Below are positions 21,516 through 36,377 of a stretch of 64,000 nt of DNA, one piece after another (positions within the stretch are counted from its first letter, which is position 1; every line of letters begins with the position of its first letter). This DNA comes from Deinococcales bacterium (GTDB taxonomy: Bacteria > Deinococcota > Deinococci > Deinococcales > JAAFIG01), in contig JAYWGM010000075.1 in the NCBI GenBank assembly GCA_043778225.1, forward strand, positions 11,747 through 75,746, given 5' to 3'. A program made the translations under genes and the position numbers. The notes below the pieces were generated by a model, which did not search any database, was not told the origin of the DNA, and saw only the letters and a program-made list of their open reading frames with translations.

Positions 21516-22190
21516 TTAAGCCCCCCGCAAACGATAGCCAACACCGCGCACGGTCTCGAGTAAATCGCCATGCAGCCCCAATTTTTTACGGATATTTTTG
21601 ATGTGCGCGTCCACAGTACGCTCATCGGCAAAAGAATCCAAGCCACCACTCTGCTCGAGCAATTCAGAACGCAAACGCACCCGAGAAGGTTCTTTGGCGA
21701 GTAAACCGAGTATTCTTACCTCGGCAGTCGTCATCGCAATATCTTGTCCAGCCACCGAAACCTCGAAAGTGGTTAGATTAACTTCGATTACGCCAACCCG
21801 CAAAGATTGTGGCAGCACCACCGCGCCTTGGACTCGCCGCAAGACCGCCTTGACTCGAGCCATAACCTCACGTGGGCTGTACGGCTTAACCACATAATCA
21901 TCTGCACCTAAACCTAAGCCAACCAATTTATCCACCTCGTCATCCCTTGCCGTGAGCATGATAATCGGGGTACTCGATTCGGCTCGAACCCGCCGTGCAA
22001 CCTCGAGACCATCGAGTTCTGGCAGCATTAAATCCAATAAAATTAAGTCTGGATTGGCAGCCCGCCAAAGCTCGAGCGCTCGAGTGCCAGTGCGGGCGCG
22101 TTCGGTCTTAAAACCCTCACGGCGAACATATTCCTCGAGAATATCCGCTAATCGGGTTTCATCTTCAACAATCAAAATTGTGCCAGACAT
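21516..22190 (-). CDS. OmpR/PhoB-family response regulator
   Basis: Receiver domain (ILIVEDE...LLDLMLP) plus winged-helix domain (VDAHIKNIRKKL...VRGVGYRL). Confidence 0.93.
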   Translation of the reverse strand: MSGTILIVEDETRLADILEEYVRREGFKTERARTGTRALELWRAANPDLILLDLMLPELDGLEVARRVRAESSTPIIMLTARDDEVDKLVGLGLGADDYVVKPYSPREVMARVKAVLRRVQGAVVLPQSLRVGVIEVNLTTFEVSVAGQDIAMTTAEVRILGLLAKEPSRVRLRSELLEQSGGLDSFADERTVDAHIKNIRKKLGLHGDLLETVRGVGYRLRGA

Positions 22191-22197: not shown

Positions 22198-22280
22198 AGG
22201 TTAAAGGGTAAAAAGGTGAAAAGGTTAAAGGGTAAAAATTAACCTTTTCTCCCTTTAACCTTTTTACCCTGCCTTTAACC
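22198..22280. repeat. Inverted array of GGTNAAAR units forming a long hairpin (core AAAAGGTTAAAGGG / CCCTTTAACCTTTT at 22219-22232 / 22251-22264)
   Basis: Read directly. On the minus strand the hairpin is followed by CACCTTTTT, so it can terminate gene 22275..22727. Confidence 0.75.
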
Positions 22281-22727
22281 AAGTGCGTTCTTGATCATCT
22301 GGAAAGTTTCGAGTGTGATTTCGCCACTGGCAAGGCGTTGACGAGCGATTTTTAGGGCTGGGTCGGATTCGCTGCTGATTTCGAGTTGGGTTTTTAGGTC
22401 TTCAAACTGCTCTGGGGTCAGTTCGGATTTGGCGAGGCGGACTCGAGCCATTTGTAAAGCATCGTCGGAAGAACCCGTTTGCCATTTATTGCGCCATTCT
22501 TGCTTACCTTGTTGCCACATTGATTTGAAATTCTCACGTCCCTGACCAGACCATGCCATACGACGGCTGTGTTTGAACCAACGGATTGCCCAAAAAATGG
22601 CGGCAATCAGAAAAACAAACCACAGCACCTTAAAAAAACCAGCCAAGAAAAACCAACCGGGGTCGACCATCTGCATACCACTCCGAAAACCATCGTTCCA
22701 CATAAGTCTTGCTCCTTTTCTACTCAA
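22275..22727 (-). CDS. SHOCT-domain membrane protein
   Basis: One TM helix, then two SHOCT-like repeats (RVRLAKSELTPEQFEDLKTQL and RQRLASGEITLETFQMIKNAL). The start is uncertain because there are several Met codons. Confidence 0.7.
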   Translation of the reverse strand: MSRKGARLMWNDGFRSGMQMVDPGWFFLAGFFKVLWFVFLIAAIFWAIRWFKHSRRMAWSGQGRENFKSMWQQGKQEWRNKWQTGSSDDALQMARVRLAKSELTPEQFEDLKTQLEISSESDPALKIARQRLASGEITLETFQMIKNALG

Positions 22728-25900: not shown

Positions 25901-26259
25901 TGGCAGTGCGGATGTCAAAACTGCGTGAACTCGGAGTGCGTTTATCGGTTGATGACTTTGGTACAGGTCACTCGAGTTTAGGTTATTTGCAGCGTTTACC
26001 AGTTGAATGTCTCAAAATTGATCGTTCGTTTATTATTGCCATGGACGCTGGCGGGGAATCCTTGGTGCGCGGTATTATTGATTTAGCCCATAATTTAGGG
26101 ATGACTGTGGTTGCCGAGGGTGTAGAAACCGAATGCCAATGCCAAACCTTAATAGAAATGGGCTGTGACTTTGCCCAAGGCTACTTATTTTCTGAACCAC
26201 TGCCCACCGAAATGCTCGAAAGTTACTTTCAGTCAAGCAGCCATAGCCTCACGCTTTAA
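22930..26259 (+). CDS. CHASE-PAS-PAS-PAS-GGDEF-EAL signalling protein (c-di-GMP turnover)
   Basis: Periplasmic CHASE-like region between two TM helices, three PAS/PAC segments, RMGGDEFTLLL (GGDEF), EALLRW...DDFGTG (EAL). The start could be 22930, 22960 or 22978. Confidence 0.9.
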   Translation: MLLAIDIKLTMAQSDQMIRKYSNLIFPLGAFIFVMIITLSLWTALQRAELMAADERAHSSGREAAAALGQSYIGRQLALERMAQRWAKSDGLPEAEWRSDALGYARDFPDFLAVEWVDTQNVVRWVEPQASNQAVVGRDLSYESVRRLALETARIEQKSVTSPTITLLQGGRGFLSVHPIYRNQVFLGFIIGIFRIETFAFATLKTFAKEGLAFRIFAGSDLIYQLQASAATASRQNLRLGTIVWKLEARATADAIARARTWLPWSVLAAGLFVALLLGVAVYLVGQTAKQSLAITAINHDLTQERDFAKLVLETMGQGLIVTGADGRFTYVNAAFARLVEDSPSRLLGRSISEYTLPSDQELLNKARQERSAGQTTSYEIRLLGDKPVLITGVPRLLAGQFDGSVAVVSDLRQHFDAERILRRERDFTSAILETAGALVIVLDRLGQVVRFNRACEQTTGYTLETFRGLPFWELLIPPQESQAVKLAFLALQAGDFPGVFENHWLTRGGGQRLISWANTVLFDEAGNVEFIIGTGIDITERRLAEEGLRASEARYRAVVTSLEEGVIVQNRAGKIISVNASAERLLGLTCDQLLGQTHFYENLRFIEQNGTPIRAIYSPFSLNSTPRSGQFVGLHRTDGTLLWLSVNSRPLEYSEGGTDGVVSSFFDITERKLAEDQLAYEAMHDALTGLPNRVMFRDRVSDEIRRATREGLTFAVAFVDLDRFKHVNDTLGHGIGDSLLQVIANRLQKAVRDTDMVARMGGDEFTLLLAGVKTPEGAAVVAKKVLNALTPVIHIQGHDLFISGSIGLALYPSDGTDGETLLKNADGALYAAKDAGKNNYQFFNAPTGARVAERLNLETKLRRAFERNEFRLHYQPQVQLPTRQVIGIEALLRWSDPEDGLAVAPLRFVPILEESGMIVPVGAWVMREACTRAAALQNPIRVAVNVSAVQFARSDFLYLIAETLEVSGLAPHLLELELTESVVMRDPEAVAVRMSKLRELGVRLSVDDFGTGHSSLGYLQRLPVECLKIDRSFIIAMDAGGESLVRGIIDLAHNLGMTVVAEGVETECQCQTLIEMGCDFAQGYLFSEPLPTEMLESYFQSSSHSLTL

Positions 26260-29131
26260 TCGTTAGAAGCGAATCCTCAAATAACTCGAGCCTCCCCAAA
26301 GCGTACTGCATGGCTTCTTTAGGACTTAAACTTTTAGCTTGGGCTATAAAAAGCTGTAATTGTTCGGTACTAAAAAACTGGCTGCTTTGCACTTCTATAA
26401 ATTGATTAGGTTCTAAATCATCTAAGTTAAAATCCTGACCGGGCAGGAAACGCCATGTGTTGGCAATCGCATTCAGTCTTAAGCCCTTGGCATGGCGCTG
26501 TTGTTGCTGCATGACCGCCGCACTCAAGGCATAAAAACACGTAAAGCAAGCCGCATCTTGCACTTGCGGACAGAGAAGCCCAAGTTCTTGCAGTAAAGCG
26601 ACAACTCCAAGCCGATTGCCCCGCCGAAACATGACATTGCAAAGTGTCAGCAACGTAGCACATAAATTCACCATGTTTTTGACTTCACGGTAAATCAAAA
26701 TCGCTTGCTCGAGCAGATTCTGAGCTTTTTCTAAATCGTTTTGGGTAATGTAGACATAGGCAAAATTGGCTAAACCATTGGCTAAACCACGTTTATTTTT
26801 GTTAGCTCGAGACTTGCTAATTAAATTTTCAAAAGTCTCAATCGCCAAAGCAGTTTCGCCTTGCTGCCAGTACAAAAACGCCAATGAATTCAAACAATCG
26901 ATTTGGACATTAGCGTTTGGCACATTTTCTAGAATCTCGAGTGCAGCTTTGATACAAGAGCTTGCTCTGTCAAAGTCGCCAATATCGCCGCTAACTTCAC
27001 TAATGGCGTTCAATGCCCTTGCCTGAGCGCTCAAATCACTGATTTCCAAGGCGATTTCTAGGGCAGCTTCGGCATCGGCTAAGCGAACATCGGTGTTGTG
27101 CAAACGCATTCCAAGCACACTGCGAACGGACAGTAAATTGGATCGCGTTGAATCTTGAGCTTGCAACTCAGGTAACTCGAGCAATTGATTTAACCACTGC
27201 ATCCCTAATGGTTTTCGAGCCGCAGCAATCCAAAAATACAGAGTTGAATAGACAATTTTGGCACAGACGAGCGGATTGGTTTTCACCGACCACTCAAGGG
27301 CTAAACTGACGTTCTCAAATTCTTGTTCAAATTGTTTAACCGTCTCGGAAACAGGTTTAGCAGGGTCATGGGTTGCCACTGCCACTGCCCAATCCTGTGC
27401 CAATAAACCGAGCTCGAGTAACGCTGCTTCTTTTTGCACAGGCTCGAGTTGCTGTTCGCTAAATTGGCGAATGACTTCGTGAATAATAAAACGATTATTG
27501 CTACGGGTGATTAAGGACTTGCCGACTAACACAAATAAAATGCTCGGATTGGCTTTAGCGACTCGAGCCAGCGACTCAAGCGTAAATCCACCACGCAACA
27601 AACTCAGCTTAGCCAAAACCAATTGTTGCTCGAGTGTTAATAATTGCCAACTGGCATTAAAAACCGCCCGCATACTGCGGTGACGCAATGGCATATCTGG
27701 TTGATTTGCCAATAGAAAATCCAAGCTCAAATGAATTTCTTGCACCACTTCCTCGAGATTTAAGATTCGCAACCAATGACTGGTCAGTTCTATGGCAAGC
27801 GGTGAGCCTTGCAATAACTGACAAAGCTCGATGACAAAAGGTTTATCTTTAGGCTCAAGGACAAAACGCGGATTGACCCGTTTGGCATTACGTAAAAGCA
27901 GTTGCACCGAATCAAAAATTTCGATTTGCTCCGAATCATTTTTTGGCACATTTAAGCCCAACACATCCACCAAATACTCAGCTTGGACCTGCAGGGCTTC
28001 GCGGCTGGTGATTAAAATACGCAATCTAGGCACAGCCGCTAGTAACTCGAGAATCACCATAGACTCGTCCAGCAAATGCTCCATGTTATCAAGTACCAGC
28101 AACAAATGCTGTTCGGACAAATAATTTTTAAGAAAAACCAATTGATTCTCTAAGCCCTGCGCTGGTAAGTGCAAAGCCGCAATAATGGCTGGCACAAGCG
28201 CATCCACCGCAGCCAAAGGCACAAAAAGTGCCCCATCTGCAAATTGAGCAGCTTGTTCAGTTGCCACCTGAACCGCTAAACGGGTTTTGCCCATGCCGCC
28301 AGCCCCGACCAAAGTAATCAGCCGAACTTCTGGTTGTACAAAAAATGAAGCGATTTCGGATAAATCCACATCTCGCCCAACAAAAGCACTGACTTCTACA
28401 GGAAAATTTTGCAACAACGACTTCTCGATTAGCGCTTGAACAGGTTTTAATTCTAAAGCCGCCGCCAATTGCACGGTCGTTTCGAGTGGCGACAAACCAA
28501 GCTCGAGTTTCAAAACCCTCTTAAACGACTCAAACGCCCTAAGCGCCTCGAGCCGCCCGCCTGTTTGTATCGCACAGTTAAGCAGTAGTTGCAAAATATC
28601 CTCGGCAAGCGGGTCGGTGCTTAAAACCCGCAAGCAAATGGCTTGCGCCGCCTCAAAATTGGCTTCTACCACCAATTGCTTGGCTGCTAAAAGCGCTGTG
28701 TCTCGAAAAGCATTGTGCAGCGCCTCACGCTCTTGCTCGAGCCAATCAGACAAGTCTGGCACATCCGAATGCAACCCACTCAAAAAACTTCCCTGATACA
28801 AATTGAACGCCTCGAGATACTGATTAGAACTCATCAAGCCTTGAAACTCAGCCGCATCCGAGCGCACCAACCAACGCACAAGTTCGCCACTGGACTCGAG
28901 AACCGCAAACTCCAAAGCCCGCACCCGAGACAGCAAATGCCGCAAATTCTTCCGAGCAGCCACCGAATCAGAATCCTCAAAGAACAACACCGACAATGCT
29001 TCTCGAGAAACCCAATCTGCCTTAAAAGCCAAGTATGCCAGCAGCAAAAAACGCTTATCCGATAAGAAAATAACCTCTTGGGACTCGAGGCTTACCTTGG
29101 CAACACCCAGCAGTTGAACAGAAGGAAGCAT
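26249..29131 (-). CDS. AfsR/SARP-like regulator: winged-helix plus BTAD plus NB-ARC ATPase plus TPR (STAND class)
   Basis: ORF 26249..29257 trimmed to Met43 (MLPSVQLLG). wHTH/BTAD region (YQGSFL...WLEQEREAL...LEALRAFESFKRVLKLELGLSP), Walker A GAGGMGKTRLA and C-terminal TPR-like repeats. Confidence 0.85.
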   Translation of the reverse strand: MLPSVQLLGVAKVSLESQEVIFLSDKRFLLLAYLAFKADWVSREALSVLFFEDSDSVAARKNLRHLLSRVRALEFAVLESSGELVRWLVRSDAAEFQGLMSSNQYLEAFNLYQGSFLSGLHSDVPDLSDWLEQEREALHNAFRDTALLAAKQLVVEANFEAAQAICLRVLSTDPLAEDILQLLLNCAIQTGGRLEALRAFESFKRVLKLELGLSPLETTVQLAAALELKPVQALIEKSLLQNFPVEVSAFVGRDVDLSEIASFFVQPEVRLITLVGAGGMGKTRLAVQVATEQAAQFADGALFVPLAAVDALVPAIIAALHLPAQGLENQLVFLKNYLSEQHLLLVLDNMEHLLDESMVILELLAAVPRLRILITSREALQVQAEYLVDVLGLNVPKNDSEQIEIFDSVQLLLRNAKRVNPRFVLEPKDKPFVIELCQLLQGSPLAIELTSHWLRILNLEEVVQEIHLSLDFLLANQPDMPLRHRSMRAVFNASWQLLTLEQQLVLAKLSLLRGGFTLESLARVAKANPSILFVLVGKSLITRSNNRFIIHEVIRQFSEQQLEPVQKEAALLELGLLAQDWAVAVATHDPAKPVSETVKQFEQEFENVSLALEWSVKTNPLVCAKIVYSTLYFWIAAARKPLGMQWLNQLLELPELQAQDSTRSNLLSVRSVLGMRLHNTDVRLADAEAALEIALEISDLSAQARALNAISEVSGDIGDFDRASSCIKAALEILENVPNANVQIDCLNSLAFLYWQQGETALAIETFENLISKSRANKNKRGLANGLANFAYVYITQNDLEKAQNLLEQAILIYREVKNMVNLCATLLTLCNVMFRRGNRLGVVALLQELGLLCPQVQDAACFTCFYALSAAVMQQQQRHAKGLRLNAIANTWRFLPGQDFNLDDLEPNQFIEVQSSQFFSTEQLQLFIAQAKSLSPKEAMQYALGRLELFEDSLLTIKA

Positions 29132-29189
29132 TGTTAGACAACAGTTTACCAGCTTTTTGTGTTGCCGCGTCGCACGGATTCTTATCCAT

Positions 29190-29222
29190 GCGACGCTCAT
29201 GCGACGCTTAGACCAGTAAACT
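29190..29222 (+). promoter_or_regulatory. Candidate activator-dependent promoter A: GCGACGCT-cat-GCGACGCT-N8-TAAACT
   Basis: Read directly in the divergent region between the SARP-like gene and 29277..29732. The same architecture occurs at 32399 and 35193. Confidence 0.6.
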
Positions 29223-29276
29223 GTCCGCATCGCTCGAGAAGAACACCAAAATAGCAAGACTCGAGCAGGAGGATTT

Positions 29277-29732
29277 ATGAAAAAATGGTTCTTAATCTTG
29301 GTTGCAGTATTGGGTTTCTCGGGCTTAGCTGGCGCACAAAAATTCTCGGTCGGTGGCGGTTTAACCAGTCAGTTTCAAAATGGTTTTGTACTGGGTTTTG
29401 GCATTAACTTAGGCGCAGAAGACTTGGTAAAATTCAGCAAAGACTTTGGACTTGATGCTCGAGTTGACCTCGAAGGTTCATTTGGCGCGGGTGCTTTTTT
29501 ATTTGGTTTGGGCGCAGGTGTATACGCTTCGTACCAAATTTCTGATATTGACATTTACTTTGGACCTCGAGTGATTGTGCTACTGTCCCCAGCTTCAGCT
29601 TTTGGCTTTGGGGCGTTGCTCGGTCTGCGTTATGACTTGTCAAATACGCTTGCACTGTACAGCGAAGTACGGTTTTTGTTCACACCAGCTTTTGATTACC
29701 AAGCTGCCCTTGGCGTGCGAATCCTGCTCTAA
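29277..29732 (+). CDS. Small outer-membrane beta-barrel-like protein
   Basis: Signal peptide MKKWFLILVAVLGFSGLAGAQ, an alternating Gly/aromatic beta-strand pattern and the aromatic-rich C-terminal strand FDYQAALGVRILL. AGGAGG SD. Confidence 0.7.
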   Translation: MKKWFLILVAVLGFSGLAGAQKFSVGGGLTSQFQNGFVLGFGINLGAEDLVKFSKDFGLDARVDLEGSFGAGAFLFGLGAGVYASYQISDIDIYFGPRVIVLLSPASAFGFGALLGLRYDLSNTLALYSEVRFLFTPAFDYQAALGVRILL

Positions 29733-29747
29733 AAACCTTCTCTTGCG

Positions 29748-29774
29748 AGGCTCGAGACCCCCTACTCGAGCCTC
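29748..29774 (+). terminator. Hairpin built from two CTCGAG sites (GAGGCTCGAG-acccccta-CTCGAGCCTC)
   Basis: Perfect 10-bp inverted repeat 16 nt after the stop at 29732. There is no T-run, so terminator function is uncertain. Confidence 0.4.
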
Positions 29775-30014
29775 CACACCAAACCTTAAAAGACCAAAAG
29801 CTCGAGCAATCAAGGACTCGAGTCAGGTGAAACATTTTCAAATTTGCACTCTCTCAAGCGTTACAGGGAAAACAAGTATGACCAAAGAACCTTTGCAAAC
29901 CTATGTTCGACCAGTCCTCGAGCCGCAACCAGCCTATGCACTGGTGACTGCTGGTTTTTCTTTTCCTGTTGGTTCAACTTCGGCACTTGAACCCTTGAAT
30001 GATGTGGAGAAAAA

Positions 30015-30734
30015 ATGAAACGTTTTTTACTATCCCTTCCTTGGCTGGCACTGACCTTCATGGCGTGTCAACAAACCACGCTGAACCAACCTAAACCAAT
30101 TGACCGCAATGGAAGCGCAATGCAGGCACAAGCCTTGATTGACTGGTTTCACAAGGATGCGCCCGAAAAATACCGTGCTTCAATCATGGGCGGAGTTCCT
30201 GAGGGTTGGCGTACCGGTACGAACACCTCACAATCTGGGGCTGAGTGGGCTAAAGTTTACCGTTCGTTGGATGTTATCAGTCCGTGGGCTGTGGGAAGAT
30301 TTGCTGATAATGCTGGCGCAGATCGGTTCAACCAAAATTACATCATTCCAGATTTGCTCGAGACCAAGCGATTAGGGATTGAATATATGCCCGTGGTTTT
30401 TCCTGGTTTTTCTTGGAACAATCTTAAAAATAACGGACGAGTCAATCAAATTCCCCGCAATGGAGGTCGTTTTTATTGGAATCAAGTTTATAATGCGATC
30501 ACTTCTGGCGCGACGATGATGAAAACAGCCATGTTTGACGAAGTAGACGAAGGAACAGCGATTTTCAAAATCTCTGAAGGGAAAGCATCCGCACCTGTCG
30601 AGTTTCCAATGGTCAATCTCGATGTAGACGGAGAAAAATTACCCTCCGACTGGTATTTGCGTGTGACCGGAGCAGCTACCCAAGTGCTGAAAAAAGAAAG
30701 AAAATTGACGAAGGATTTACCGTTACGTCCTTAG
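30015..30734 (+). CDS. Hypothetical lipoprotein (possibly glycoside-hydrolase-like)
   Basis: Lipobox LALTFMAC. The only function hint is my weak recollection of similar C-terminal regions in glycosidase-like proteins (VFPGFSWNN...DEVDEGTAIFK). Confidence 0.6.
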   Translation: MKRFLLSLPWLALTFMACQQTTLNQPKPIDRNGSAMQAQALIDWFHKDAPEKYRASIMGGVPEGWRTGTNTSQSGAEWAKVYRSLDVISPWAVGRFADNAGADRFNQNYIIPDLLETKRLGIEYMPVVFPGFSWNNLKNNGRVNQIPRNGGRFYWNQVYNAITSGATMMKTAMFDEVDEGTAIFKISEGKASAPVEFPMVNLDVDGEKLPSDWYLRVTGAATQVLKKERKLTKDLPLRP

Positions 30735-30768
30735 CAAATTAAGTACCAATCAATGGTACAAAATGGAT

Positions 30769-31365
30769 TTAACTGAGCATTGCCACCAAAATCCCTAGAA
30801 TTTCAGGTAGTTCCTCCAAGTCATAAGACCGATTATCCACGGTTAAAACCCGATGCTCGAGGTGTAAGAACTGCCAAGAATTTCCAATCGTCACAGCCCC
30901 ATAAACTCGAGTTTGAGGCTTGCCCTCGCGTTCATTAAAAATTTGGGTGGCGACCATTTCGGCTGTGGCTTGGGCGATACCTTGCTTAAAATTCTCGTTC
31001 TTGGCTTCTACGACTATCAAAACAGGCGCTTCTAAATATAACTGCTGAGTTGACTTAGAAAAAAGAAAATCACAAATCCCAATTAAACCTTGTTCAGAAT
31101 CCACGTTAAATTCCACGCCACTAAACACCGAAACTTGGTCATGCACCAGTCCACGAACCTCGAGCAGAATCGGTGCAATAATAAATTCGCTTCTGGCTTT
31201 TTCCGTATTTTGTTTGACTGCTACCGAAGCACCACGTTCAAGAATATAAGTTAGCGCGGGTGTTGGTTGGATTGGCGTAAAAGCAACTCCCAAAGGCTGG
31301 TTATCAATTAATTGCAAATCAAATTTTTTAATCACGGTTGGTAAAGTAAAATTACTGTATGCCAT
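30769..31365 (-). CDS. PD-(D/E)XK nuclease-fold protein (HsdR-N-like), paralogue 1
   Basis: CDFLF...VVEAKNENF matches a D...(D/E)xK core. About 70% identical by eye to 57641..58237. Confidence 0.7.
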   Translation of the reverse strand: MAYSNFTLPTVIKKFDLQLIDNQPLGVAFTPIQPTPALTYILERGASVAVKQNTEKARSEFIIAPILLEVRGLVHDQVSVFSGVEFNVDSEQGLIGICDFLFSKSTQQLYLEAPVLIVVEAKNENFKQGIAQATAEMVATQIFNEREGKPQTRVYGAVTIGNSWQFLHLEHRVLTVDNRSYDLEELPEILGILVAMLS

Positions 31366-31397
31366 TTGTTTAGTGTAGTCGTTTCGTTCCTGAGTTT

Positions 31398-32342
31398 CTA
31401 CGAGGAAAATAAGTATTTTCTTAAAGCAACTATTTGTGAGTTTCGGAAATCCCGAACCACTTGAATTTGCGGATCAAAAACATCAAAACCATGAAATGCA
31501 CCTCCGACCACTACAAGTTCAGTCTCGATGCTACTTGCTTCTAACCGCTTTGCATACGTTAAATCTTCGTCATAAAAAACATCCAGAGACCCCACGCCAA
31601 TCCAAACGGGAGGCAAACCAGTGAGGTCTTCTCGGCGGGCAGGTACGGCATAAGGAGGTGTGGTTTTTGCGCCACACGCTGTTCCTAAGTAGCTCTCCCA
31701 ACCAAATTGATTACTTTTTTGCGTCCAAGTCACATTTTGGCTGTCATCTATTTCGGTACGCAGTACAGTTCGATCATCAAGCATCGGGTAGATAAGTAAT
31801 TGAAGTGCCACTTTGAATTCTTGTCGGTCATAAATAAGTTGTACCAGAGCCGCAGCCAGTCCACCACCTGCGCTCGCCCCGCCAATGGCAATTCGGTTTA
31901 GATCTATGCCCAGTTCTCGAGCTTGCGAAACAACCCATTTTAAGGCAGCATAACAGTCGTCTAATCCAATTGGAAAAGGATACTTTGGTGCGTACCGGTA
32001 ATCCACTGAAACCACTGTGATGCCTAATTCTTGAACATACTGCGAACAACAACCATCATCTTGTTCTGGCTTGCCGACCACATAACCACCGCCGTGCATC
32101 CAAATCAGCACAGGAGTTGGTGTTGTTGCCATTTTTGGTTTGTAGACCCGTACACGAATCTTTGCTTGACCTGATTCGATAAAAATATTTTCGATGAAAA
32201 CACTTTGCGGAGTTTTGGCTTTAGGCATGATGGACATAATCAAACGCATCAGCCAAAGGTTTTTTTTATTAAAATCAAATTTTGGAGTTCTGTTTGCAAT
32301 TTGTAAAAGCTGAGGATGAATTTTAGAAATTTCTTTTTTCAT
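31398..32342 (-). CDS. Alpha/beta hydrolase, HSL-type esterase/lipase
   Basis: HGGGYV oxyanion motif, GASAGG nucleophile elbow and a C-terminal HGF motif. Confidence 0.85.
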   Translation of the reverse strand: MKKEISKIHPQLLQIANRTPKFDFNKKNLWLMRLIMSIMPKAKTPQSVFIENIFIESGQAKIRVRVYKPKMATTPTPVLIWMHGGGYVVGKPEQDDGCCSQYVQELGITVVSVDYRYAPKYPFPIGLDDCYAALKWVVSQARELGIDLNRIAIGGASAGGGLAAALVQLIYDRQEFKVALQLLIYPMLDDRTVLRTEIDDSQNVTWTQKSNQFGWESYLGTACGAKTTPPYAVPARREDLTGLPPVWIGVGSLDVFYDEDLTYAKRLEASSIETELVVVGGAFHGFDVFDPQIQVVRDFRNSQIVALRKYLFSS

Positions 32343-32398
32343 GCGAATACTCCGTGTGCGTTGTTGGTTTGAACAGAGTCTACCTCAGTTTCCACCGT

Positions 32399-32431
32399 GC
32401 GACGCTGATGCGACGCTTTGTGTAGCATAAT
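32399..32431 (+). promoter_or_regulatory. Candidate activator-dependent promoter B: GCGACGCT-gat-GCGACGCT-N8-CATAAT
   Basis: Read directly, 40 nt upstream of the P450 ATG. The downstream ATCGCTCGAGAA is shared with promoter A. Confidence 0.6.
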
Positions 32432-32470
32432 CATCGTATCGCTCGAGAACTCGAGGAAAAAAGGAGCATC

Positions 32471-33712
32471 ATGTCTGAACCCACTTCCGTAGCGGCGAGC
32501 CGCAAATACGACCTGTACAGCCAGACCACCAAAGATAATCCGTATCCTGTGTTTGCCCAGATGCGTCTCGAGAATCCTGTCTATTCGCAACTTGGGTTGG
32601 ATGGAAAAACCAAAATTTGGTTTGTGACTCGCTTTGAAGATGTTCAATACATTCTGCATCACGATGAACTTTTTGTGCGTGACTCCAAAAATGCTCTACC
32701 CGCCGATAAAGTACATCAGCCCAGCCAACTCGAGGCGTTGATGTTTAACCATATGCTCAATAAAGACGGCGAAGATCACCGCCGCTTACGCACCTTGGTC
32801 AGCCAAGCCTTCACCCCGTCTCGAGTGCGTGAAATGCGACCTCAAGTCCAAGCCATTAGCGATGATTTAATCGCAGCCATTAAGTCCAAAGGGCAAATGG
32901 ATTTAATTGCTGATTATGCGTTTGCATTACCAACGATTGTGATTTCCCAAATGCTGGGTATTCCCACCACAGACCGTGAGCGTTTTAAGCAATGGACCGA
33001 AGCCACCATCGCGCCAGCCCTGACACCAGAAGCCCAAGCCAAGGCAGGAGCGCTGTTGCAAGAATTTGCGGCATACTTAGGCGAACTGTTTGCTGCGCGG
33101 CGTTTGAATCCACAAAACGATTTGATTTCGGCGTTGCTCCAAGCCGAAGAAGCCGGCAATCAACTTTCCGAATCTGAACTTTATAGCACCGTTGTGCTGC
33201 TGATTATTGCTGGACATGAAACCACCGTCAACCTAATTGGCAATTCGATTCTTGCACTGATGCGTTTCCCCGAAGCTCGAGCAGAGTTGCAACAACACCC
33301 CGAACAAATGGCTGGCGCTTTAGATGAATTCCTGCGTTACGATAGCCCTGTCGAACGGGCTTTCTCGAGATGGGCTGCTAAGGATACCGAACTTGGCGGG
33401 CAGCAAATCAAACAAGGCGATTTGGTCATGGGCATATTAGGCGCTGCTAATCACGACCCAGAAAAATTCCCTAACCCAGAGGTGCTTGACCTTTCGAGAG
33501 ATGCAAAACGCCAATTGGCATTCGGACACGGAATGCACTTTTGTCTGGGGATGCCTTTGGCTCGGCTCGAGGGTGAAATTGCCCTGAATTCCTTGTTGCA
33601 AAACCTGCCGAATTTGCGCCTTGGGGTCGGCGAAGAAGACCTGACTTGGCGTACCCTGCCAATGTTTCGTGGCATGAAACAAATTCCAATCGTTTGGGAT
33701 ATGAGTACATGA
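32471..33712 (+). CDS. Cytochrome P450
   Basis: AGHETT I-helix, ExxR (EFLRYD) and the heme-Cys loop FGHGMHFCLG. Confidence 0.93.
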   Translation: MSEPTSVAASRKYDLYSQTTKDNPYPVFAQMRLENPVYSQLGLDGKTKIWFVTRFEDVQYILHHDELFVRDSKNALPADKVHQPSQLEALMFNHMLNKDGEDHRRLRTLVSQAFTPSRVREMRPQVQAISDDLIAAIKSKGQMDLIADYAFALPTIVISQMLGIPTTDRERFKQWTEATIAPALTPEAQAKAGALLQEFAAYLGELFAARRLNPQNDLISALLQAEEAGNQLSESELYSTVVLLIIAGHETTVNLIGNSILALMRFPEARAELQQHPEQMAGALDEFLRYDSPVERAFSRWAAKDTELGGQQIKQGDLVMGILGAANHDPEKFPNPEVLDLSRDAKRQLAFGHGMHFCLGMPLARLEGEIALNSLLQNLPNLRLGVGEEDLTWRTLPMFRGMKQIPIVWDMST

Positions 33713-34242
33713 AACCCATTTTTTTAATCATGGGAACACCTGCCGCAGGCAAAAGCACCATTGCTAAAGCCTTGACGCAGCGCTTTGAGAAGGGGCTGCA
33801 TATTCCCGTGGATGACCTGCGCCACATGGTCGTCTCGGGCTTGTCAGACATGGGTTTTGAAGTTCCACCCGCCACGCTCGAACAGGTGCGCTTGGCTCGA
33901 GAAGCCGCTTCGAGCATGGCAAGGATTTACTCAGATAACGAATTTGCAGTTGCTATAGATGATTTTTGGTACGGTGATAAACCCGACGAAGTGTACGCGC
34001 AAAAAATCGGGCAACGTGTGACCCGAGTTTTACTGCTCCCAAACCTCGAGACAACAGTGCAGCGCTTGTACTCGAGAAACCCAGAAGAGGGCAGTTTTAA
34101 GCAGATTCTCGAGCAAGCGATTCGGCAATTGCATGTCCAGATTGCAGTGCATCCAAAGATTAATTGGCTGGTGATTGACTCGAGCGGTTTGAGTGTTGAA
34201 CAGACTGTAGATAAAATCCTTGCGAGAACGGAAAGAACTTGA
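33709..34242 (+). CDS. P-loop kinase/AAA-family protein (phosphotransferase-like)
   Basis: ORF 33646..34242. The ATG at 33709 overlaps the P450 stop (ATGA). MKPIFLIMGTPAAGKSTIAKAL Walker A. Confidence 0.75.
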   Translation: MKPIFLIMGTPAAGKSTIAKALTQRFEKGLHIPVDDLRHMVVSGLSDMGFEVPPATLEQVRLAREAASSMARIYSDNEFAVAIDDFWYGDKPDEVYAQKIGQRVTRVLLLPNLETTVQRLYSRNPEEGSFKQILEQAIRQLHVQIAVHPKINWLVIDSSGLSVEQTVDKILARTERT

Positions 34243-34311
34243 AGACAAGGCTTTTGATGACGTTATACAAAGAGCCCAATCCCTAGAAGCGTTCCGTCCC
34301 CGTCTTGAGTC

Positions 34312-34794
34312 CTAGAGGTGTTCTTGCAACCGATCTTGCACCCGCCAGAGTAGTTGAATCAGTTTCTCTTGCTCTTTTGGACTCAGCACCTCCATCCATA
34401 TTTTTTCTGCGCGGTGAATCGGTACGCGCACTTCGTCCGCTACCCTGCGCCCCTCATCGGTGATTTCAACAAGGAGCATTCGGCGGTCCGACGGGTGCGG
34501 TTTGCGCTGGACGTAACCCCGGCGTTCAAGTGAGTCGAGCAATCCGGTGATGGTCGCTCGGGTCACGACCAGTCTATCGCTAATCTCGTGCGGCGAGAGG
34601 GGACTGTTCGCATTTGCCAATGCGATCAGTGCCAGCCCCGTGGCGATACTGAGGTCGAACGGACGCTTAATTGTCTCGATGTGACTGAGCAAAAGATCAT
34701 TGGTGCGGACGATGTTCAAGACGCACTCTGTGGCTTTTCTGCTACTCTCGGGCCAGCGTTGCTCGAATCCTTCGGATAGTGTTATGTGTTGCAT
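34312..34794 (-). CDS. MarR family transcriptional regulator
   Basis: wHTH region LSPHEISDRLVVTRATITGLLDSLERRGYVQRKPHPSDRR. Confidence 0.9.
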   Translation of the reverse strand: MQHITLSEGFEQRWPESSRKATECVLNIVRTNDLLLSHIETIKRPFDLSIATGLALIALANANSPLSPHEISDRLVVTRATITGLLDSLERRGYVQRKPHPSDRRMLLVEITDEGRRVADEVRVPIHRAEKIWMEVLSPKEQEKLIQLLWRVQDRLQEHL

Positions 34795-34857
34795 GGTGTG
34801 CTATTCTCCTTCTTTTTACTATTGGCACAGATAATCAGCACCAAGATAGTTAGGGAC

Positions 34858-34886
34858 TTGACAAATTTAGTTTGACCCCTTATTAT
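34858..34886 (+). promoter_or_regulatory. Sigma-70-type promoter TTGACA-17-TATTAT, divergent from marR
   Basis: Exact hexamers and 17-nt spacer read directly. Confidence 0.55.
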
Positions 34887-35014
34887 CACCTTACAAGCAA
34901 TCAGGTCGGGTGTAAAGATACATTCGTAATCACGCGACACACATGCAAGGCCTCTGCTGAGAAACGACCTATCTGGCTGGTTAAAACTTGGCGCTCTGAA
35001 TACTCGAAGTGTCT

Positions 35015-35129
35015 AAGAAAATACCTCACGCAATCATTTTCGCATTTACCAAGATTTTGACATCAAAACCCCAACATCCCCGAACGCCCTTGAAGTCGAA
35101 AGGAGCGAAGTGTCAAGTATTGTCTGTCC
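35015..35129 (+). repeat. Leader module copy 1 (49-nt block identical to 36757-36805; second block 35078-35129 about 88% identical to 36863-36913)
   Basis: Direct comparison of the two loci. Confidence 0.9.
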
Positions 35130-35192
35130 TAGACCATTGTTTGCATCCATGATACCCACAACCCCCAATGCCGAGCTGGGCTGGAAGTCCAC

Positions 35193-35225
35193 GCGACGCT
35201 CACGCAACGCACCCTTTGGCATACT
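35193..35225 (+). promoter_or_regulatory. Candidate promoter C: GCGACGCT-cac-GCAACGCA-N8-CATACT
   Basis: Same spacing as A and B, but the second repeat is degenerate. It lies 114 nt upstream of 35339. Confidence 0.4.
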
Positions 35226-35338: not shown

Positions 35339-35623
35339 ATGACTACCCTATTTGTAAGACACCAAGTGAGCAATTTTGATAACTGGAAAAAGATCTACGA
35401 CGAGCTTGGAGCTACTCGCGAAAAGATGGGGGTCAGCGCAGCCAGCGTCCACCGTGATGGTACCGACCCCAATACAGTAATGGTTACCCACCGGTTTCCC
35501 AACATCGGTGCAGCCACCGCTTTTGCCAACTCCGAGGAACTCAAAGCTGGCATGGGACGGGCTGGGGTTACCAGCCAACCGGAGATGTGGTTTACCGACG
35601 ACGTTGAACACACCGCGCACTAG
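35339..35623 (+). CDS. Small alpha/beta-barrel (ABM/Dabb-like) protein, paralogue 1
   Basis: ORF 35168..35623 trimmed to MTTLFVRHQV with an AAAGGAG SD. Paralogous to 37028..37297. Confidence 0.7.
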   Translation: MTTLFVRHQVSNFDNWKKIYDELGATREKMGVSAASVHRDGTDPNTVMVTHRFPNIGAATAFANSEELKAGMGRAGVTSQPEMWFTDDVEHTAH

Positions 35624-35855: not shown

Positions 35856-36377
35856 ATGCTAACTATTTCTCAAGTCAACTCAGAAGCCGAAATTGTAGCT
35901 GTTCAAGAACTAATGCGCGAATACGCAACGTGGGCTTTCACACTCATCCCGGGCAGTAATGAAGCGCCTACTTGGGAGGGATTCGACGAGGAGTTGGCGA
36001 CATTACCCGGTATTTATGCACCACCAGGGCGTTTACTACTAGCCATGCAAGATGGAAAGCCAGCAGGGTGTGTATGTCTCAAAGCACATGATGCCAATAC
36101 CAGTGAACTCAAGCGGCTCTACGTGCGTCCCATCTTTCGGGGACAAAACATTGGTCAGCAATTAGTCAAAATTCTTGTTAAAGAGGCACGTCAATCCAGA
36201 TATCAACGGATCGTGCTGGATAGCCACGCTTCGATGAAAAAAGCACATGCAATCTATTTGGAAGTTGGATTTAGATTGGTGAGCGCCCCGAATGATTTTC
36301 CAGAGGAACTCAAACCAGTTGTGGTGTTCATGGAGTGTGATCTATCTGATGCAACCAATGAAAATGAAGTAGATTGA
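35856..36377 (+). CDS. GNAT family N-acetyltransferase
   Basis: RLYVRPIFRGQNIGQQLV acetyl-CoA binding motif (R/Q-x-x-G-x-G/A). Confidence 0.88.
   Translation: MLTISQVNSEAEIVAVQELMREYATWAFTLIPGSNEAPTWEGFDEELATLPGIYAPPGRLLLAMQDGKPAGCVCLKAHDANTSELKRLYVRPIFRGQNIGQQLVKILVKEARQSRYQRIVLDSHASMKKAHAIYLEVGFRLVSAPNDFPEELKPVVVFMECDLSDATNENEVD

What the first reader, a model, noticed from the sequence alone, without database searches (positions are those of the whole stretch)
26249..35225. AfsR/SARP-like STAND regulator with three candidate target promoters of SARP architecture
**Regulator.** Gene 26249..29131(-) encodes wHTH plus BTAD plus NB-ARC plus TPR domains.

**Promoter A (29190-29222).** It sits in the divergent spacer of the regulator gene and reads GCGACGCT-cat-GCGACGCT-N8-TAAACT. 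It lies upstream of the small OMP-like gene.

**Promoter B (32399-32431).** The same module, GCGACGCT-gat-GCGACGCT-N8-CATAAT, precedes the cytochrome P450/kinase pair.

**Promoter C (35193-35225).** A degenerate copy, GCGACGCT-cac-GCAACGCA-N8-CATACT, precedes the ABM-like gene.

The repeats have 11-bp periodicity and the proximal repeat lies 8 bp from the -10 box. This replaces a -35 element and is the established arrangement for Streptomyces SARP activators. A and B also share ATCGCTCGAGAA at the predicted start site.

Together this suggests a small regulon (barrel protein, P450 plus kinase, ABM-like protein) under a signal-sensing STAND activator in a Deinococcus-Thermus background. As far as I know, such regulators are uncharacterised there.
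Basis: partly seen in the sequence, partly recalled or inferred. Interest (0 to 1): 0.7.

Follow-up and report, generated by a model that had tools for sequence, protein, structure and literature searches.

The report
SARP-type activator regulon in Deinococcota
An uncultured Deinococcus relative carries an AfsR-like "antibiotic regulatory protein" and three nearby promoters built like the promoters such proteins switch on in Streptomyces. This is strong sequence-only evidence that this regulator family, usually described as confined to actinobacteria, also works in another phylum.

Summary
I rate it a new member of a known kind, from sequence evidence only.

- **Sites:** GCGACGCT-N3-GCGACGCT-N8-(-10) occurs at 29190 and 32399, with a 2-mismatch copy at 35193. 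These are the only three matches in 64 kb. All are intergenic, point at the downstream gene and lack a -35 element.
- **Regulator:** gene 26249..29131(-) is a large SARP.
  - A profile of residues 1-235 aligns end to end with the SARP domains of AfsR and EmbR.
  - The AlphaFold model (pLDDT 94.9) finds only those two proteins by fold.
  - An NB-ARC domain with Walker A and B motifs and a TPR domain follow.
- **Conservation:** the module recurs at 25 sites in 13 loci whose regulators are 27-86% identical. Only the repeats and the -10 hexamer stay fixed.
- **Independent scan:** in a motif-only metagenome scan, all four promoter-like hits lay within about 420 bp of a SARP-STAND gene.
- **Recognition helix:** ARKNLRHLLSR(V/T)R is kept in every regulator beside such a site whose N-terminus could be read. 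It differs where the repeat differs.
- **Geometry:** it matches the AfsR afs box.
- **Host:** an uncultured Deinococcota lineage.
- **Correction:** the shared ATCGCTCGAGAA is partly explained by about 40-fold genome-wide CTCGAG enrichment.
- **Unknown:** protein binding, transcription start sites, the signal sensed and the physiological role.

The parts
26249..29131 (-). Regulator gene, 960 aa: a large SARP (SARP domain, then NB-ARC/STAND ATPase, then TPR). The start is the ATG at 29131.
   Evidence: The ORF and its translation are. Orthologues begin at the same Met (MLPSVQLLG). Pfam finds BTAD, NB-ARC and TPR. The best match among solved structures is AfsR 8k60/8jke.
28442..29131 (-). SARP domain, residues 1-230: an OmpR-type winged helix-turn-helix (three strands, helices 26-37, 43-50 and 56-71, wing 78-87) followed by the all-helical BTAD. 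The recognition helix is SVAARKNLRHLLSRVR.
   Evidence: Profile A2 aligns with AfsR 8hvr_I residues 48-285 (E=1.5e-16) and EmbR 2fez (E=1.9e-13). The AlphaFold model has pLDDT 94.9 and pTM 0.86. The top Foldseek hits are AfsR and EmbR only. Helix conservation is shown.
27392..28384 (-). NB-ARC/STAND nucleotide-binding module, about residues 250-580. Walker A is GAGGMGKT; Walker B is LLLVLDN.
   Evidence: Pfam finds NB-ARC, AAA_22 and AAA_16. Both motifs are visible in the translation. G276, G279, G281, K282 and D348 are invariant in 25 orthologues. The module aligns with the AfsR nucleotide-binding domain.
26432..27154 (-). C-terminal TPR array, about residues 660-900: the presumed sensor or autoinhibitory module.
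   Evidence: Pfam finds TPR_12, TPR_MalT and TPR_8. The full-length model shows regular helix pairs with pLDDT of about 90 over residues 660-895.
29143..29151 (-). Likely promoter of the regulator itself: an extended -10 (TGGTAAACT on the minus strand), 11 nt before the ATG. This implies a leader of about 5 nt with no Shine-Dalgarno sequence.
   Evidence: Read from the sequence. The block AAAAGCTGTTAAACT is conserved in orthologues, including L004 where the divergent gene is absent. This is an inference; no start-site data exist.
29167..29173 (-). A single inverted GCGACGC half-site, 17-18 bp upstream of the regulator's own -10 hexamer. It may serve autoregulation.
   Evidence: Read from the sequence. 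It is only partly conserved: exact in the window and L169, one mismatch in L084, L086 and L087, absent in L004. Weak evidence.
29190..29222 (+). Promoter A: upstream repeat 29190-29197, downstream repeat 29201-29208, 8-bp spacer, -10 TAAACT 29217-29222.
   Evidence: (39.5 bits). The repeats are invariant in seven aligned barrel-gene promoters. There is no -35.
29229..29240 (+). ATCGCTCGAGAA at the predicted start of transcript A.
   Evidence: CATCGCTCGAG is invariant in the orthologous promoters. The start site is predicted only.
29277..29732 (+). Target gene A: a 151-aa secreted, glycine-rich protein with alternating hydrophobic residues, possibly a small beta-barrel.
   Evidence: The translation shows a signal peptide. 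The Pfam OMP_b-brl match is E=0.003, below threshold. Orthologues are 76-88% identical and lie behind the same promoter in L084, L085, L086 and L088.
32399..32431 (+). Promoter B: upstream repeat 32399-32406, downstream repeat 32410-32417, 8-bp spacer, -10 CATAAT 32426-32431.
   Evidence: (34.5 bits). The same promoter lies before the kinase in L084. The P450 genes of L004, L085, L086 and L087 carry the repeats with a 7-bp spacer.
32438..32449 (+). ATCGCTCGAGAA at the predicted start of transcript B.
   Evidence: It sits at the same offset from the repeats as in promoter A (39 nt).
32471..33712 (+). Target gene B1: a cytochrome P450 of the CYP107-like bacterial class.
   Evidence: Pfam p450, E=2e-34. 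The best solved relatives are PksS, CYP267B1 and Vdh. Orthologues are 85-90% identical behind the same operator.
33709..34242 (+). Target gene B2: a P-loop kinase (AAA_33 / chloramphenicol-phosphotransferase-like). Its start overlaps the P450 stop (ATGA).
   Evidence: Pfam AAA_33 and CPT hits near threshold. Orthologues are listed.
35193..35225 (+). Promoter C: upstream repeat 35193-35200, degenerate downstream repeat GCAACGCA 35204-35211, 8-bp spacer, -10 CATACT 35220-35225.
   Evidence: 2 mismatches; 33.6 bits.
35339..35623 (+). Target gene C: a 94-aa ABM-like (ferredoxin-like fold) protein.
   Evidence: Pfam ABM, E=9e-4, below threshold. Translation. Homologues lie downstream of the same operator in L089 (37% identical) and L124 (55%).

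Best explanation
Gene 26249..29131(-) encodes a large SARP, an AfsR-type STAND transcription activator, in an uncultured Deinococcota bacterium.

**Proposed mechanism**
- Two SARP domains bind side by side, head to tail, to two 11-bp direct repeats. Each repeat has 8 conserved bp, (c/t)a(t/c)GCGACGC(t), and about 3 free bp.
- The repeats occupy roughly -39 to -18 of three promoters that have a -10 hexamer but no -35 element.
- The bound dimer stands in for the -35 contact with sigma region 4 and recruits RNA polymerase. This is the 'sigma adaptation' mode described for AfsR.
- Three units are switched on:
  - a secreted 151-aa barrel-like protein;
  - a P450 plus P-loop kinase operon;
  - a 94-aa ABM-like protein.
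- The NB-ARC ATPase and the TPR array probably hold the SARP domain inactive until ATP, and perhaps an unknown ligand, is bound.
- The regulator gene itself seems to be read from an extended -10 promoter as a nearly leaderless mRNA.

**Shown:** domain identity, site architecture, site conservation, and the physical and evolutionary link between sites and SARP genes.

**Inferred:** binding, activation rather than repression, start sites, ATP or ligand control, and the physiological role. My guess for the role is oxidation and phosphorylation of a small molecule plus a change in the cell envelope.
For: 1. **Regulator family.**
   - The N-terminal profile aligns over positions 6-231 with the SARP domains of AfsR (8hvr, E=1.5e-16) and EmbR (2fez, E=1.9e-13).
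   - The model of residues 1-235 has pLDDT 94.9. Its only significant fold matches (E<=0.001) are AfsR and EmbR, at TM 0.60-0.69.
   - BTAD, NB-ARC and TPR are found by Pfam, and Walker A and B motifs are present and invariant.
2. **Site architecture.** There are exactly three sites in 64 kb, all intergenic and co-oriented with the next gene. The repeats are spaced 11 bp apart and the 3' repeat lies 8 bp from an nAnnnT hexamer. No -35-like hexamer exists at 16-18 bp. The generic sigma-70 scan does not call these promoters.
3. **Published SARP rule.** The 3' repeat lies 8 bp from -10 and repeats are 11 or 22 bp apart. In AfsR the afs box spans -40 to -19, with 8 contacted and 3 uncontacted bp per repeat (PMC10936776).
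4. **Conservation.**
   - 25 sites in 13 loci carry about 1.4-1.6 bits per position at both GCGACGC cores and little at most flanking positions.
   - In seven barrel-gene promoters the conserved block begins exactly at the first repeat, even where the promoter is no longer next to the regulator (L085, L088).
   - The operator follows the P450/kinase and barrel genes through rearrangements.
5. **Independent link to SARP genes.** A metagenome scan for the motif alone returned 117 stretches, mostly GC-rich chance hits inside genes. The four with promoter-like context (L169, L124, L113, L164) all lie 60-420 bp from a SARP-STAND gene.
6. **Specificity.**
   - ARKNLRHLLSR(V/T)R is kept in every regulator next to a GCGACGC site whose N-terminus could be read, including paralogues only 37-43% identical overall (one has S for the first A).
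   - It differs in L031, whose divergent promoter carries GAAACGCT repeats, and in the Meiothermus, Calidithermus and Trueperaceae homologues, which have no GCGACGC pair.
   - No site was found near the regulator in 1.2 Mb of loci of distant homologues.
Against: - No experiment supports any step. Binding, activation, start sites and the inducing signal are all inferred.
- Architecture alone cannot separate SARPs from OmpR/PhoB-type response regulators, which also bind 11-bp-phased direct repeats at the -35 position. One such regulator is encoded 7 kb away (21516..22190).
- Related genomes carry two or more SARP-STAND paralogues with the same recognition helix close together. The source genome may have others outside the window, so which paralogue serves which promoter is open.
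- Site C has a degenerate proximal repeat.
- Many -10 hexamers start with C (CATACT, CAAACT), and the spacer is 7, 8 or 9 bp in different promoters.
- The full-length AlphaFold model is poor at the N-terminus (pLDDT 30-54).
- Single-sequence searches do not see the winged helix-turn-helix.
- No biosynthetic core genes lie nearby, unlike classical SARP regulons.
Confidence: 0.8

Rival explanations
1. The repeats are real operators, but another winged-helix protein binds them. The obvious candidate is the OmpR/PhoB-type response regulator at 21516..22190(-) with its histidine kinase. Such regulators also recognise 11-bp-phased direct repeats that replace the -35 element.
For: - The response regulator and kinase pair lies 4-7 kb from the SARP gene in the window, L086 and L087, at 94-96% identity.
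- Pho-box-like architecture is formally the same as what is seen here (established knowledge of PhoB).
Against: - No orthologous response regulator lies within +/-10 kb in L084, L088, L089, L090 or L091, nor on L169, L124, L113 or L164. L085 has only a 34%-identical regulator.
- A SARP gene lies within 60-420 bp of at least one motif copy in every locus examined except L004. That includes the loci found by the motif alone.
- The SARP recognition helix tracks the repeat sequence.
Confidence: 0.07
2. A SARP binds the sites, but the effect or the partner differs from the simple model. Either the protein represses or merely occupies the sites, or a different SARP-STAND paralogue encoded elsewhere in the genome is the true regulator of B and C. 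In that case this gene would control only the adjacent promoter A.
For: - Paralogues with an identical recognition helix sit beside identical operators in L004, L086, L089, L090 and L091.
- Sites B and C lie 3.2 and 6 kb from the regulator.
- An inverted half-site sits near the regulator's own promoter.
Against: - Only one SARP gene exists in the 64-kb window.
- The promoters lack any -35 element, so occupancy at -39 to -18 is expected to activate, as in AfsR.
- In L085 the orthologous regulator is directly divergent from the P450 operon.
Confidence: 0.1
3. The repeated module is not a protein operator. It could be a duplicated promoter cassette, a leader-RNA element or a small mobile repeat, or its recurrence could be chance in a genome rich in short repeats such as CTCGAG.
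For: - A and B share a further 12-mer at the same offset, which could mean simple duplication.
- The genome is full of CTCGAG.
Against: - Conservation is confined to the two repeats, the -10 hexamer and, in barrel promoters, the +1 block. Spacers and flanks vary freely among genomes 64-86% identical in the regulator.
- Rfam finds nothing at E<=1.
- The predicted leaders fold no better than shuffles: z = -1.15, +0.34 and +1.51.
- The motif itself contains no CTCGAG.
- Chance expectation is 0.33 hits per window, against 3 observed.
Confidence: 0.02

Closest known systems
AfsR of Streptomyces coelicolor (large SARP; PDB 8hvr, 8k60, 8jke)
   Same: - The domain order is the same: OmpR-type winged helix-turn-helix, BTAD, NB-ARC/NOD, TPR. 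The size is similar (960 against 993 aa).
- The SARP domain aligns end to end and has the same fold. The nucleotide-binding domain also aligns.
- The operator geometry is the same: two 11-bp direct repeats, 8 conserved bp each, spanning about -40 to -19, at a promoter without a usable -35.
   Different: - Sequence identity is only about 18-21% in the SARP domain.
- It is not an AfsR orthologue: the NCBIfam AfsR model scores 68 bits against a cut-off of 1430.
- The host is Deinococcota, not Actinomycetota.
- The repeat sequence GCGACGC is a different operator.
- The targets are a barrel protein, a P450/kinase pair and an ABM-like protein, not afsS.
- No AfsK-type Ser/Thr kinase lies next to it.
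Pathway-specific large SARPs such as PolY (polyoxin) and RslR3 (rishirilide)
   Same: They have the same SARP, NB-ARC and TPR build and act as activators of neighbouring genes (review PMC10972967).
   Different: They sit inside biosynthetic gene clusters. Here no PKS, NRPS or other core biosynthetic gene lies within +/-10 kb.
EmbR of Mycobacterium tuberculosis (PDB 2fez, 2ff4)
   Same: The SARP domain fold (winged helix-turn-helix plus BTAD) is shared: Foldseek E of about 5e-7, TM of about 0.6; profile E=1.9e-13.
   Different: EmbR ends in an FHA domain and is controlled by PknH phosphorylation. This protein ends in NB-ARC and TPR.
PhoB/OmpR response regulators and pho boxes
   Same: Winged-helix proteins bind as tandem head-to-tail dimers to 11-bp-phased direct repeats that replace the -35 element (established knowledge).
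   Different: This protein has no receiver domain. It carries BTAD, STAND and TPR modules instead.
[quoted passage not shown]
   Same: It is the only SARP-type protein of Deinococcus I found discussed in the literature. Its targets are unknown (PMC3564903).
   Different: It has a different build, with a CheY receiver followed by a SARP domain. It has no STAND or TPR module and no known operator.

Membership tests
SARP family (Streptomyces antibiotic regulatory proteins), large / AfsR-type subclass | N-terminal OmpR-type winged helix-turn-helix DNA-binding domain | tested here: met
   Single-sequence Pfam and PDB searches miss it. A 36-sequence profile aligns positions 6-231 with AfsR 8hvr residues 48-285 (E=1.5e-16) and EmbR 2fez. 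The AlphaFold model (pLDDT 94.9) shows three strands, three helices and a wing. The only Foldseek hits at E<=0.001 are AfsR and EmbR.
SARP family (Streptomyces antibiotic regulatory proteins), large / AfsR-type subclass | Bacterial transcriptional activation domain (BTAD) directly after the DNA-binding domain | tested here: met
   Pfam PF03704: E=9.2e-15, 55.7 bits against a cut-off of 22.1, residues 104-226.
SARP family (Streptomyces antibiotic regulatory proteins), large / AfsR-type subclass | Central NB-ARC/NOD ATPase with Walker A and B motifs | tested here: met
   Pfam NB-ARC scores 24.6 bits against a cut-off of 23.5. GAGGMGKT and LLLVLDN are in the translation and invariant in 25 orthologues. 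The module aligns with AfsR residues 203-620.
SARP family (Streptomyces antibiotic regulatory proteins), large / AfsR-type subclass | C-terminal TPR domain | tested here: met
   TPR_12 scores 42 bits against a cut-off of 30.1, and TPR_8 scores 37.5 against 25.7. The model shows regular helix pairs over residues 660-895.
SARP family (Streptomyces antibiotic regulatory proteins), large / AfsR-type subclass | [quoted passage not shown] | tested here: met
   The rule is quoted from PMC10936776. Sites A, B and C fit it exactly. It is conserved in 25 sites, with spacers of 7-9 bp.
SARP family (Streptomyces antibiotic regulatory proteins), large / AfsR-type subclass | The protein binds the repeats and activates transcription | not testable with these tools
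   This needs gel-shift or footprint assays and in vitro or in vivo transcription. Only indirect support exists: co-localisation and co-variation of helix and repeat.
SARP family (Streptomyces antibiotic regulatory proteins), large / AfsR-type subclass | Taxonomic and functional habit as described in reviews: actinobacterial, controlling secondary-metabolite gene clusters | tested here: not met
   The host is Deinococcota: the best named AspRS hit is a Deinococcota MAG at 88%, and cultured Deinococcus reach 58-60%. The closest reference genome is a Deinococcales MAG. No core biosynthetic genes are nearby. The review says 'exclusively found in actinobacteria'. I treat this as a habit of the known members, not as a molecular definition.
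AfsR orthologue group (NCBIfam NF053617, equivalog) | Full-length score above the curated cut-off | tested here: not met
   68.1 bits against a cut-off of 1430, and the best-scoring stretch matched is the TPR part. It has the AfsR build but is not an AfsR orthologue.
OmpR/PhoB response regulators | N-terminal CheY-like receiver domain with a phospho-acceptor Asp | tested here: not met
   No Response_reg hit. The winged helix-turn-helix is at the extreme N-terminus.
Antiphage STAND NTPases (Avs / bacterial NLR-like defence) | Match to a defence STAND model and an N-terminal effector such as a nuclease or protease | tested here: not met
   PADLOC gives only a marginal TPR hit (E=3e-4). The N-terminal domain is a DNA-binding SARP domain.

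The most novel reading that the evidence does not exclude
An uncultured Deinococcota lineage holds a family of SARP-STAND paralogues that share one recognition helix and one operator (GCGACGC-N4-GCGACGC) but have different TPR sensors.

- Several signals would then converge on a shared, fluid regulon:
  - small secreted or barrel-like proteins;
  - tailoring-type enzymes (P450 with kinase, ABM-like proteins, glutaminyl cyclase, PLP decarboxylase);
  - 46-68-aa ORFs.
- That regulon could be a cryptic small-molecule or peptide-modification pathway.
- The AfsR-type 'sigma adaptation' mode of activation would then be an old, cross-phylum mechanism rather than an actinobacterial speciality.
Probability: 0.35. 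Interest if true: 0.65.

Novelty: new member of a known kind. Interest (0 to 1): 0.5.

Why it matters
- **Family range.** Reviews describe SARPs as found exclusively or mainly in actinobacteria, and their activation mechanism has been worked out only for Streptomyces AfsR. Here is a complete regulator-plus-operator set, conserved across genomes, in Deinococcota. The same promoter logic therefore seems to operate with a distant RNA polymerase and sigma factor.
- **Testable system.** The operator is sharply defined, there are three promoters of graded quality, and the regulon is small. It could be tested in tractable Deinococcus or Thermus hosts.
- **Annotation.** The result gives a rule for finding targets of the thousands of unstudied SARP-STAND genes in Deinococcota and Chloroflexota: look for 11-bp-phased repeats 7-9 bp upstream of a -10 hexamer next to the regulator gene.
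- **Limit.** The biology controlled is still unknown, which limits the immediate impact.

Tried and rejected
- **Single-sequence searches of the N-terminus.** Pfam at E<=10 on residues 1-110 found nothing. phmmer against the PDB on residues 1-230 gave only a marginal BTAD match. A 36-sequence profile replaced them.
- **Full-length AlphaFold run.** With 25 close orthologues the winged helix-turn-helix came out at pLDDT 30-54. I reran residues 1-235 with a more diverse alignment.
- **Scan of reference genomes with the regulator profile.** The source genome was not recovered. Orthologous loci were fetched by exact-protein look-ups instead.
- **Metagenome motif scan.** Most of the 117 hits were chance matches in GC-rich DNA. 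Only four were informative.
- **A fourth site in the window.** The best extra candidate (34934, 14.7 bits) is below the shuffle maximum of 19.8 and has no -10 hexamer. Rejected.
- **RNA-element reading of the leaders.** No Rfam hit and no significant folding. Rejected.
- **Defence-system reading of the STAND protein.** No PADLOC support. Rejected.
- **Organism names from cluster look-ups.** None returned. AspRS homologues were used instead.
- **A third in-phase repeat upstream of the sites.** None is visible in the sequences. L086 has an extra GCAACGCT 14 bp upstream of the first repeat, out of phase.
- **Autoregulation through the inverted half-site at 29167-29173.** It is out of phase with the -10 and only partly conserved. 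Left open.

Full report
**1. The observation**

- A: GCGACGCT-cat-GCGACGCT-tagaccag-TAAACT, 29190-29222.
- B: GCGACGCT-gat-GCGACGCT-ttgtgtag-CATAAT, 32399-32431.
- C: GCGACGCT-cac-GCAACGCA-ccctttgg-CATACT, 35193-35225.

They are more than chance.
- GCGACGCTNNNGCGACGCT with up to three mismatches has only these three hits in the 64-kb window on both strands. Shuffles give 0.33 on average.
- A weight matrix built from related sites scores them 39.5, 34.5 and 33.6 bits. The next position scores 14.7 and the shuffle maximum is 19.8.
- All three lie in non-coding DNA, which is about 13% of the window, and point at the next gene.
- At 16-18 bp upstream of each -10 hexamer the sequence is GCTCAT, CGCTCA or similar. 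Nothing resembles TTGACA.
- A generic sigma-70 scan does not call these promoters. That fits promoters which depend on an activator.

The shared ATCGCTCGAGAA is real and sits 6 nt after each -10 hexamer in A and B. Its weight must be cut, because CTCGAG occurs 361 times in the window against about 8 expected.

**2. The regulator**

The ORF 26249..29131(-) encodes 960 aa. Orthologues start at the same methionine.

Pfam finds three of the four domains.
- BTAD: E=9e-15.
- NB-ARC: just above its cut-off.
- TPR.

Walker A (GAGGMGKT) and Walker B (LLLVLDN) are present and invariant in 25 orthologues. By sequence, the best match among solved structures is AfsR.

A full-length AlphaFold run also modelled it poorly. 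I therefore tested it in two further ways.
- A profile of 36 diverse N-terminal regions aligns over positions 6-231 with the SARP domain of AfsR (8hvr residues 48-285, E=1.5e-16) and of EmbR (2fez, E=1.9e-13).
- A model of residues 1-235 reached pLDDT 94.9. It shows three strands, three helices and a wing, followed by an all-helical domain. Its only Foldseek hits at E<=0.001 are AfsR and EmbR chains, aligned over 249-261 columns with TM 0.60-0.69.

The protein is therefore a large SARP. It is not an AfsR orthologue: the NCBIfam AfsR model scores 68 bits against a cut-off of 1430.

**3. The host**

- The window is chromosomal. It carries RadA, HisRS, AspRS and a 2-oxoacid oxidoreductase.
- The best named relative of its AspRS is a Deinococcota MAG at 88% identity. 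Cultured Deinococcus and Deinobacterium reach only 58-60%.
- The only close relative of the regulator among species-representative genomes is a Deinococcales MAG at 64%.

The 'Deinococcus-Thermus background' is correct, and the lineage is uncultured.

**4. Comparative test of the promoters**

I fetched loci encoding regulators 49-86% identical to this one and scanned them.

- Every locus carries the same module.
- In all 25 sites, the pair of GCGACGC cores is followed after 7-9 bp by an nAnnnT hexamer: CATACT, CAAACT, CAGACT, TAAACT, TATACT, CATAAT or GATAGT.
- Information content is about 1.4-1.6 bits per position across both cores. It is about 0.8-1.0 bits at the (c)A(t/c) before each core, and lower at most positions just after the second core.
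- An alignment of seven barrel-gene promoters shows invariant repeats, a free spacer, the -10 hexamer and an invariant CATCGCTCGAG at the predicted start. Conservation begins exactly at the first repeat, even where the promoter is no longer beside the regulator (L085, L088).

Gene order around the regulator is shuffled between genomes, yet the operator stays with the same genes.

| Target | Loci where the operator precedes it |
|---|---|
| Barrel gene | window, L084, L085, L086, L087, L088 |
| P450/kinase operon | window, L004, L085, L086, L087 |
| Kinase alone | L084 |
| ABM-like genes (downstream of the operator) | window, L089, L124 |

More distant orthologues place the operator before other small ORFs and enzyme genes.

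**5. Is the SARP the binder?**

Architecture alone would also fit an OmpR/PhoB response regulator, and one is encoded at 21516..22190. Three results favour the SARP.

- **A motif-only scan.** I scanned public metagenome contigs for the motif alone (GCGACGC-N4-GCGACGC-N9/10-ANACT). It gave 117 stretches, nearly all chance matches inside genes of GC-rich genomes. Four had promoter-like context: L169, L124, L113 and L164. All four lie 60-420 bp from a SARP-STAND gene, either divergent from it or just downstream of it.
- **The response regulator is not consistently linked.** Its orthologue is absent from the +/-10 kb flanks in most loci.
- **The recognition helix tracks the repeat**.
  - ARKNLRHLLSR(V/T)R is kept in every SARP next to a GCGACGC operator whose N-terminus could be read. 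That includes paralogues only 37-43% identical overall; one has S for the first A.
  - The L031 paralogue has ARNALRLIFHRAKQ, and its divergent promoter carries TGAAACGCT-aa-TGAAACGCT.
  - The Meiothermus, Calidithermus and Trueperaceae homologues have other helices and no GCGACGC pair.

No such site turned up near the regulator in 1.2 Mb of loci encoding distant homologues. The three matches there, at up to two mismatches, had no promoter context, and two of them fall inside the regulator's own coding sequence.

**6. Mechanism proposed**

Take the -10 hexamer as -12 to -7. The 22-bp operator then spans about -39 to -18.

In the AfsR-afsS complex the afs box spans -40 to -19. It consists of two 11-bp repeats. 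The first 8 bp of each are contacted by one SARP protomer of a side-by-side dimer. The dimer also holds sigma region 4, the beta flap tip, the beta' zinc-binding domain and the alpha C-terminal domain (PMC10936776).

I therefore propose the same sigma-adaptation mode here. Two SARP domains sit on the two repeats and stand in for the missing -35 contact. By analogy with AfsR, the NB-ARC and TPR parts would inhibit the SARP domain until ATP, and perhaps a ligand, binds.

These steps are inferred. Only the domains and the DNA architecture are shown.

The regulator's own promoter looks constitutive.
- It has a conserved extended -10 (TGGTAAACT, 29151-29143 on the minus strand) 11 nt before the ATG. 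This implies a nearly leaderless mRNA.
- A single inverted GCGACGC at 29167-29173 might allow autoregulation. It is out of phase and only partly conserved.

**7. The regulon**

| Promoter | Gene(s) | Evidence |
|---|---|---|
| A | 151-aa protein with a signal peptide and a glycine-rich alternating pattern |; the Pfam OMP beta-barrel hit is below threshold, so 'OMP-like' is plausible but not shown |
| B | CYP107-like P450 and a translationally coupled P-loop kinase | |
| C | 94-aa ABM-like protein | |

- Neighbouring genes include an HSL-family esterase, a MarR regulator, a GNAT and a cupin. These suggest modification of small molecules.
- No core biosynthetic genes are present.
- The physiological role is unknown.

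**8. Rivals**

| Rival | Main evidence against | Estimate |
|---|---|---|
| Binding by a response regulator | co-localisation with SARP genes and helix/repeat co-variation | about 0.07 |
| Another SARP paralogue is the true partner of B and C, or the SARP represses | only one SARP gene in the window; promoters lack a -35 | about 0.1 |
| RNA element, mobile cassette or chance | no Rfam hit; leader folds no better than shuffles; pattern of conservation | about 0.02 |
| Antiphage STAND system | no PADLOC support | not scored |

**9. Comparison with the known, and novelty**

The protein meets every molecular criterion of a large SARP, and its promoters meet the SARP rule. It fails only the habit of known members, which are actinobacterial and cluster-situated.

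A 2024 review calls SARPs 'exclusively found in actinobacteria' (PMC10972967). The AfsR paper says 'mainly'.

Database annotation already labels such Deinococcota and Chloroflexota proteins as SARP-family, and there are more than 3,900 homologues at E<=1e-10. The only SARP-type Deinococcus protein I found discussed in the literature is a differently built response regulator with unknown targets (PMC3564903).

This is therefore a new member of a known kind, with an unusually well-supported operator and regulon in a new phylum.

- Interest: 0.5.
- Confidence in the proposed mechanism: 0.8.

Noticed in passing
whole window (for example 29748-29776, 29801-29822); also L004, L007, L031, L049, L082, L169: CTCGAG is extremely over-represented in the window.
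- **Count:** 361 copies (5.6 per kb) against about 8 expected from shuffles. It is the most enriched hexamer by far.
- **Position:** it occurs in all three codon phases and is denser in non-coding DNA.
- **Coding bias:** 61% of Leu-Glu dipeptides are written CTCGAG, although CTC and GAG are minority codons.
- **Relatives:** related Deinococcales loci show 5.7-7.4 per kb.
- **Hairpins:** pairs form intergenic hairpins, such as GAGGCTCGAG-N7-CTCGAGCCTC after the barrel gene.
- **Cause:** unknown.
   Followed up: partly
L004 9879 and 12818; L086 1020-4040 and 10100; L089 3782 and 10001; L090 10001 and 19479-22466; L091 1554-2642, 10001 and 13010-15997: Several SARP paralogues sit within about 10 kb of each other. 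They are 32-54% identical to the window regulator, and one in L091 is a 362-aa 'small' SARP. Those at L004 12818, L086 1020, L089 3782 and L091 1554 keep the window regulator's recognition helix (with one or two conservative changes in L004 and L086). The 995-aa paralogues of L090 and L091 carry a variant, ARKNLRHLIGRIK. GCGACGC operators lie near them. How specificity between paralogue and promoter is set is unclear.
   Followed up: partly
L031 about 9935-9960 (minus strand); L082 about 360-395; L025 about 9610-9640: More distant SARP-STAND genes of Deinococcales and Thermaceae have their own 11-bp-phased direct repeats in the region next to the gene. These are TGAAACGCT x2 followed by CAAAGT, GGGCGTAAA x2 followed by TATAAT, and TGATCGG x2 followed by CACACT. 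The architecture looks general for the clade.
   Followed up: partly
window 30769-31365 (-) and 57641-58231 (+): The 198-aa ORF between the barrel operon and the esterase matches a PD-(D/E)xK nuclease model strongly (PADLOC PDLC01472, E=1e-51). It is 91-93% conserved in L085 and L086, and a 68.5%-identical paralogue lies elsewhere in the window.
   Followed up: no
L004 9690-9840: In L004 the region upstream of the orthologous regulator holds about five tandem copies of a roughly 31-bp unit (ctgaccgcacccgc.gttcacagagg). They take the place of the divergent barrel-gene promoter.
   Followed up: no
L087 9730-9860: In L087 the barrel-gene leader carries an insertion of about 120 bp with a GC-rich palindrome (GTAGGGACGCAGCGCGCTGCGTCCCTAC). 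The barrel ORF there is called as only 43 aa, so the gene may be decaying.
   Followed up: no
window 31398-32342 (-), 33709-34242 (+), 34312-34794 (-), 35856-36377 (+): Several genes cluster around promoters B and C: an HSL-family esterase, a kinase with a weak chloramphenicol-phosphotransferase-like hit, a MarR regulator and a GNAT. The esterase has below-threshold similarity to chloramphenicol hydrolase (E=5.6e-49). The set resembles a xenobiotic or antibiotic-modification island.
   Followed up: no
window 34934-34957 (+): This is a weak repeat-like sequence, GCGACACAcatGCAAGGCC, between the MarR gene and promoter C. It scores 14.7 bits, below the shuffle maximum, and has no -10 hexamer at the right distance. 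It is probably not a site.
   Followed up: yes
window 29878-30018 (+): A 46-aa ORF (MTKEPLQTYVRPVLEPQP...) is called between the barrel gene and the 239-aa gene. Small ORFs of 62-68 aa are also the first genes after the operator in L089, L090 and L091. Their function is unknown, and a peptide-precursor role is pure speculation.
   Followed up: no
L004 3306, L085 10000, L086 5331 and 1019, L087 7035: P450-type promoters in relatives form a second spacing class. The proximal repeat is fused to CTCGAG (GCGACGCTCGAG) and lies 7 bp, not 8 bp, from TATACT or TAAACT, and the leader is short. Promoter B of the window instead resembles the barrel-gene promoter, which suggests promoter remodelling.
   Followed up: partly
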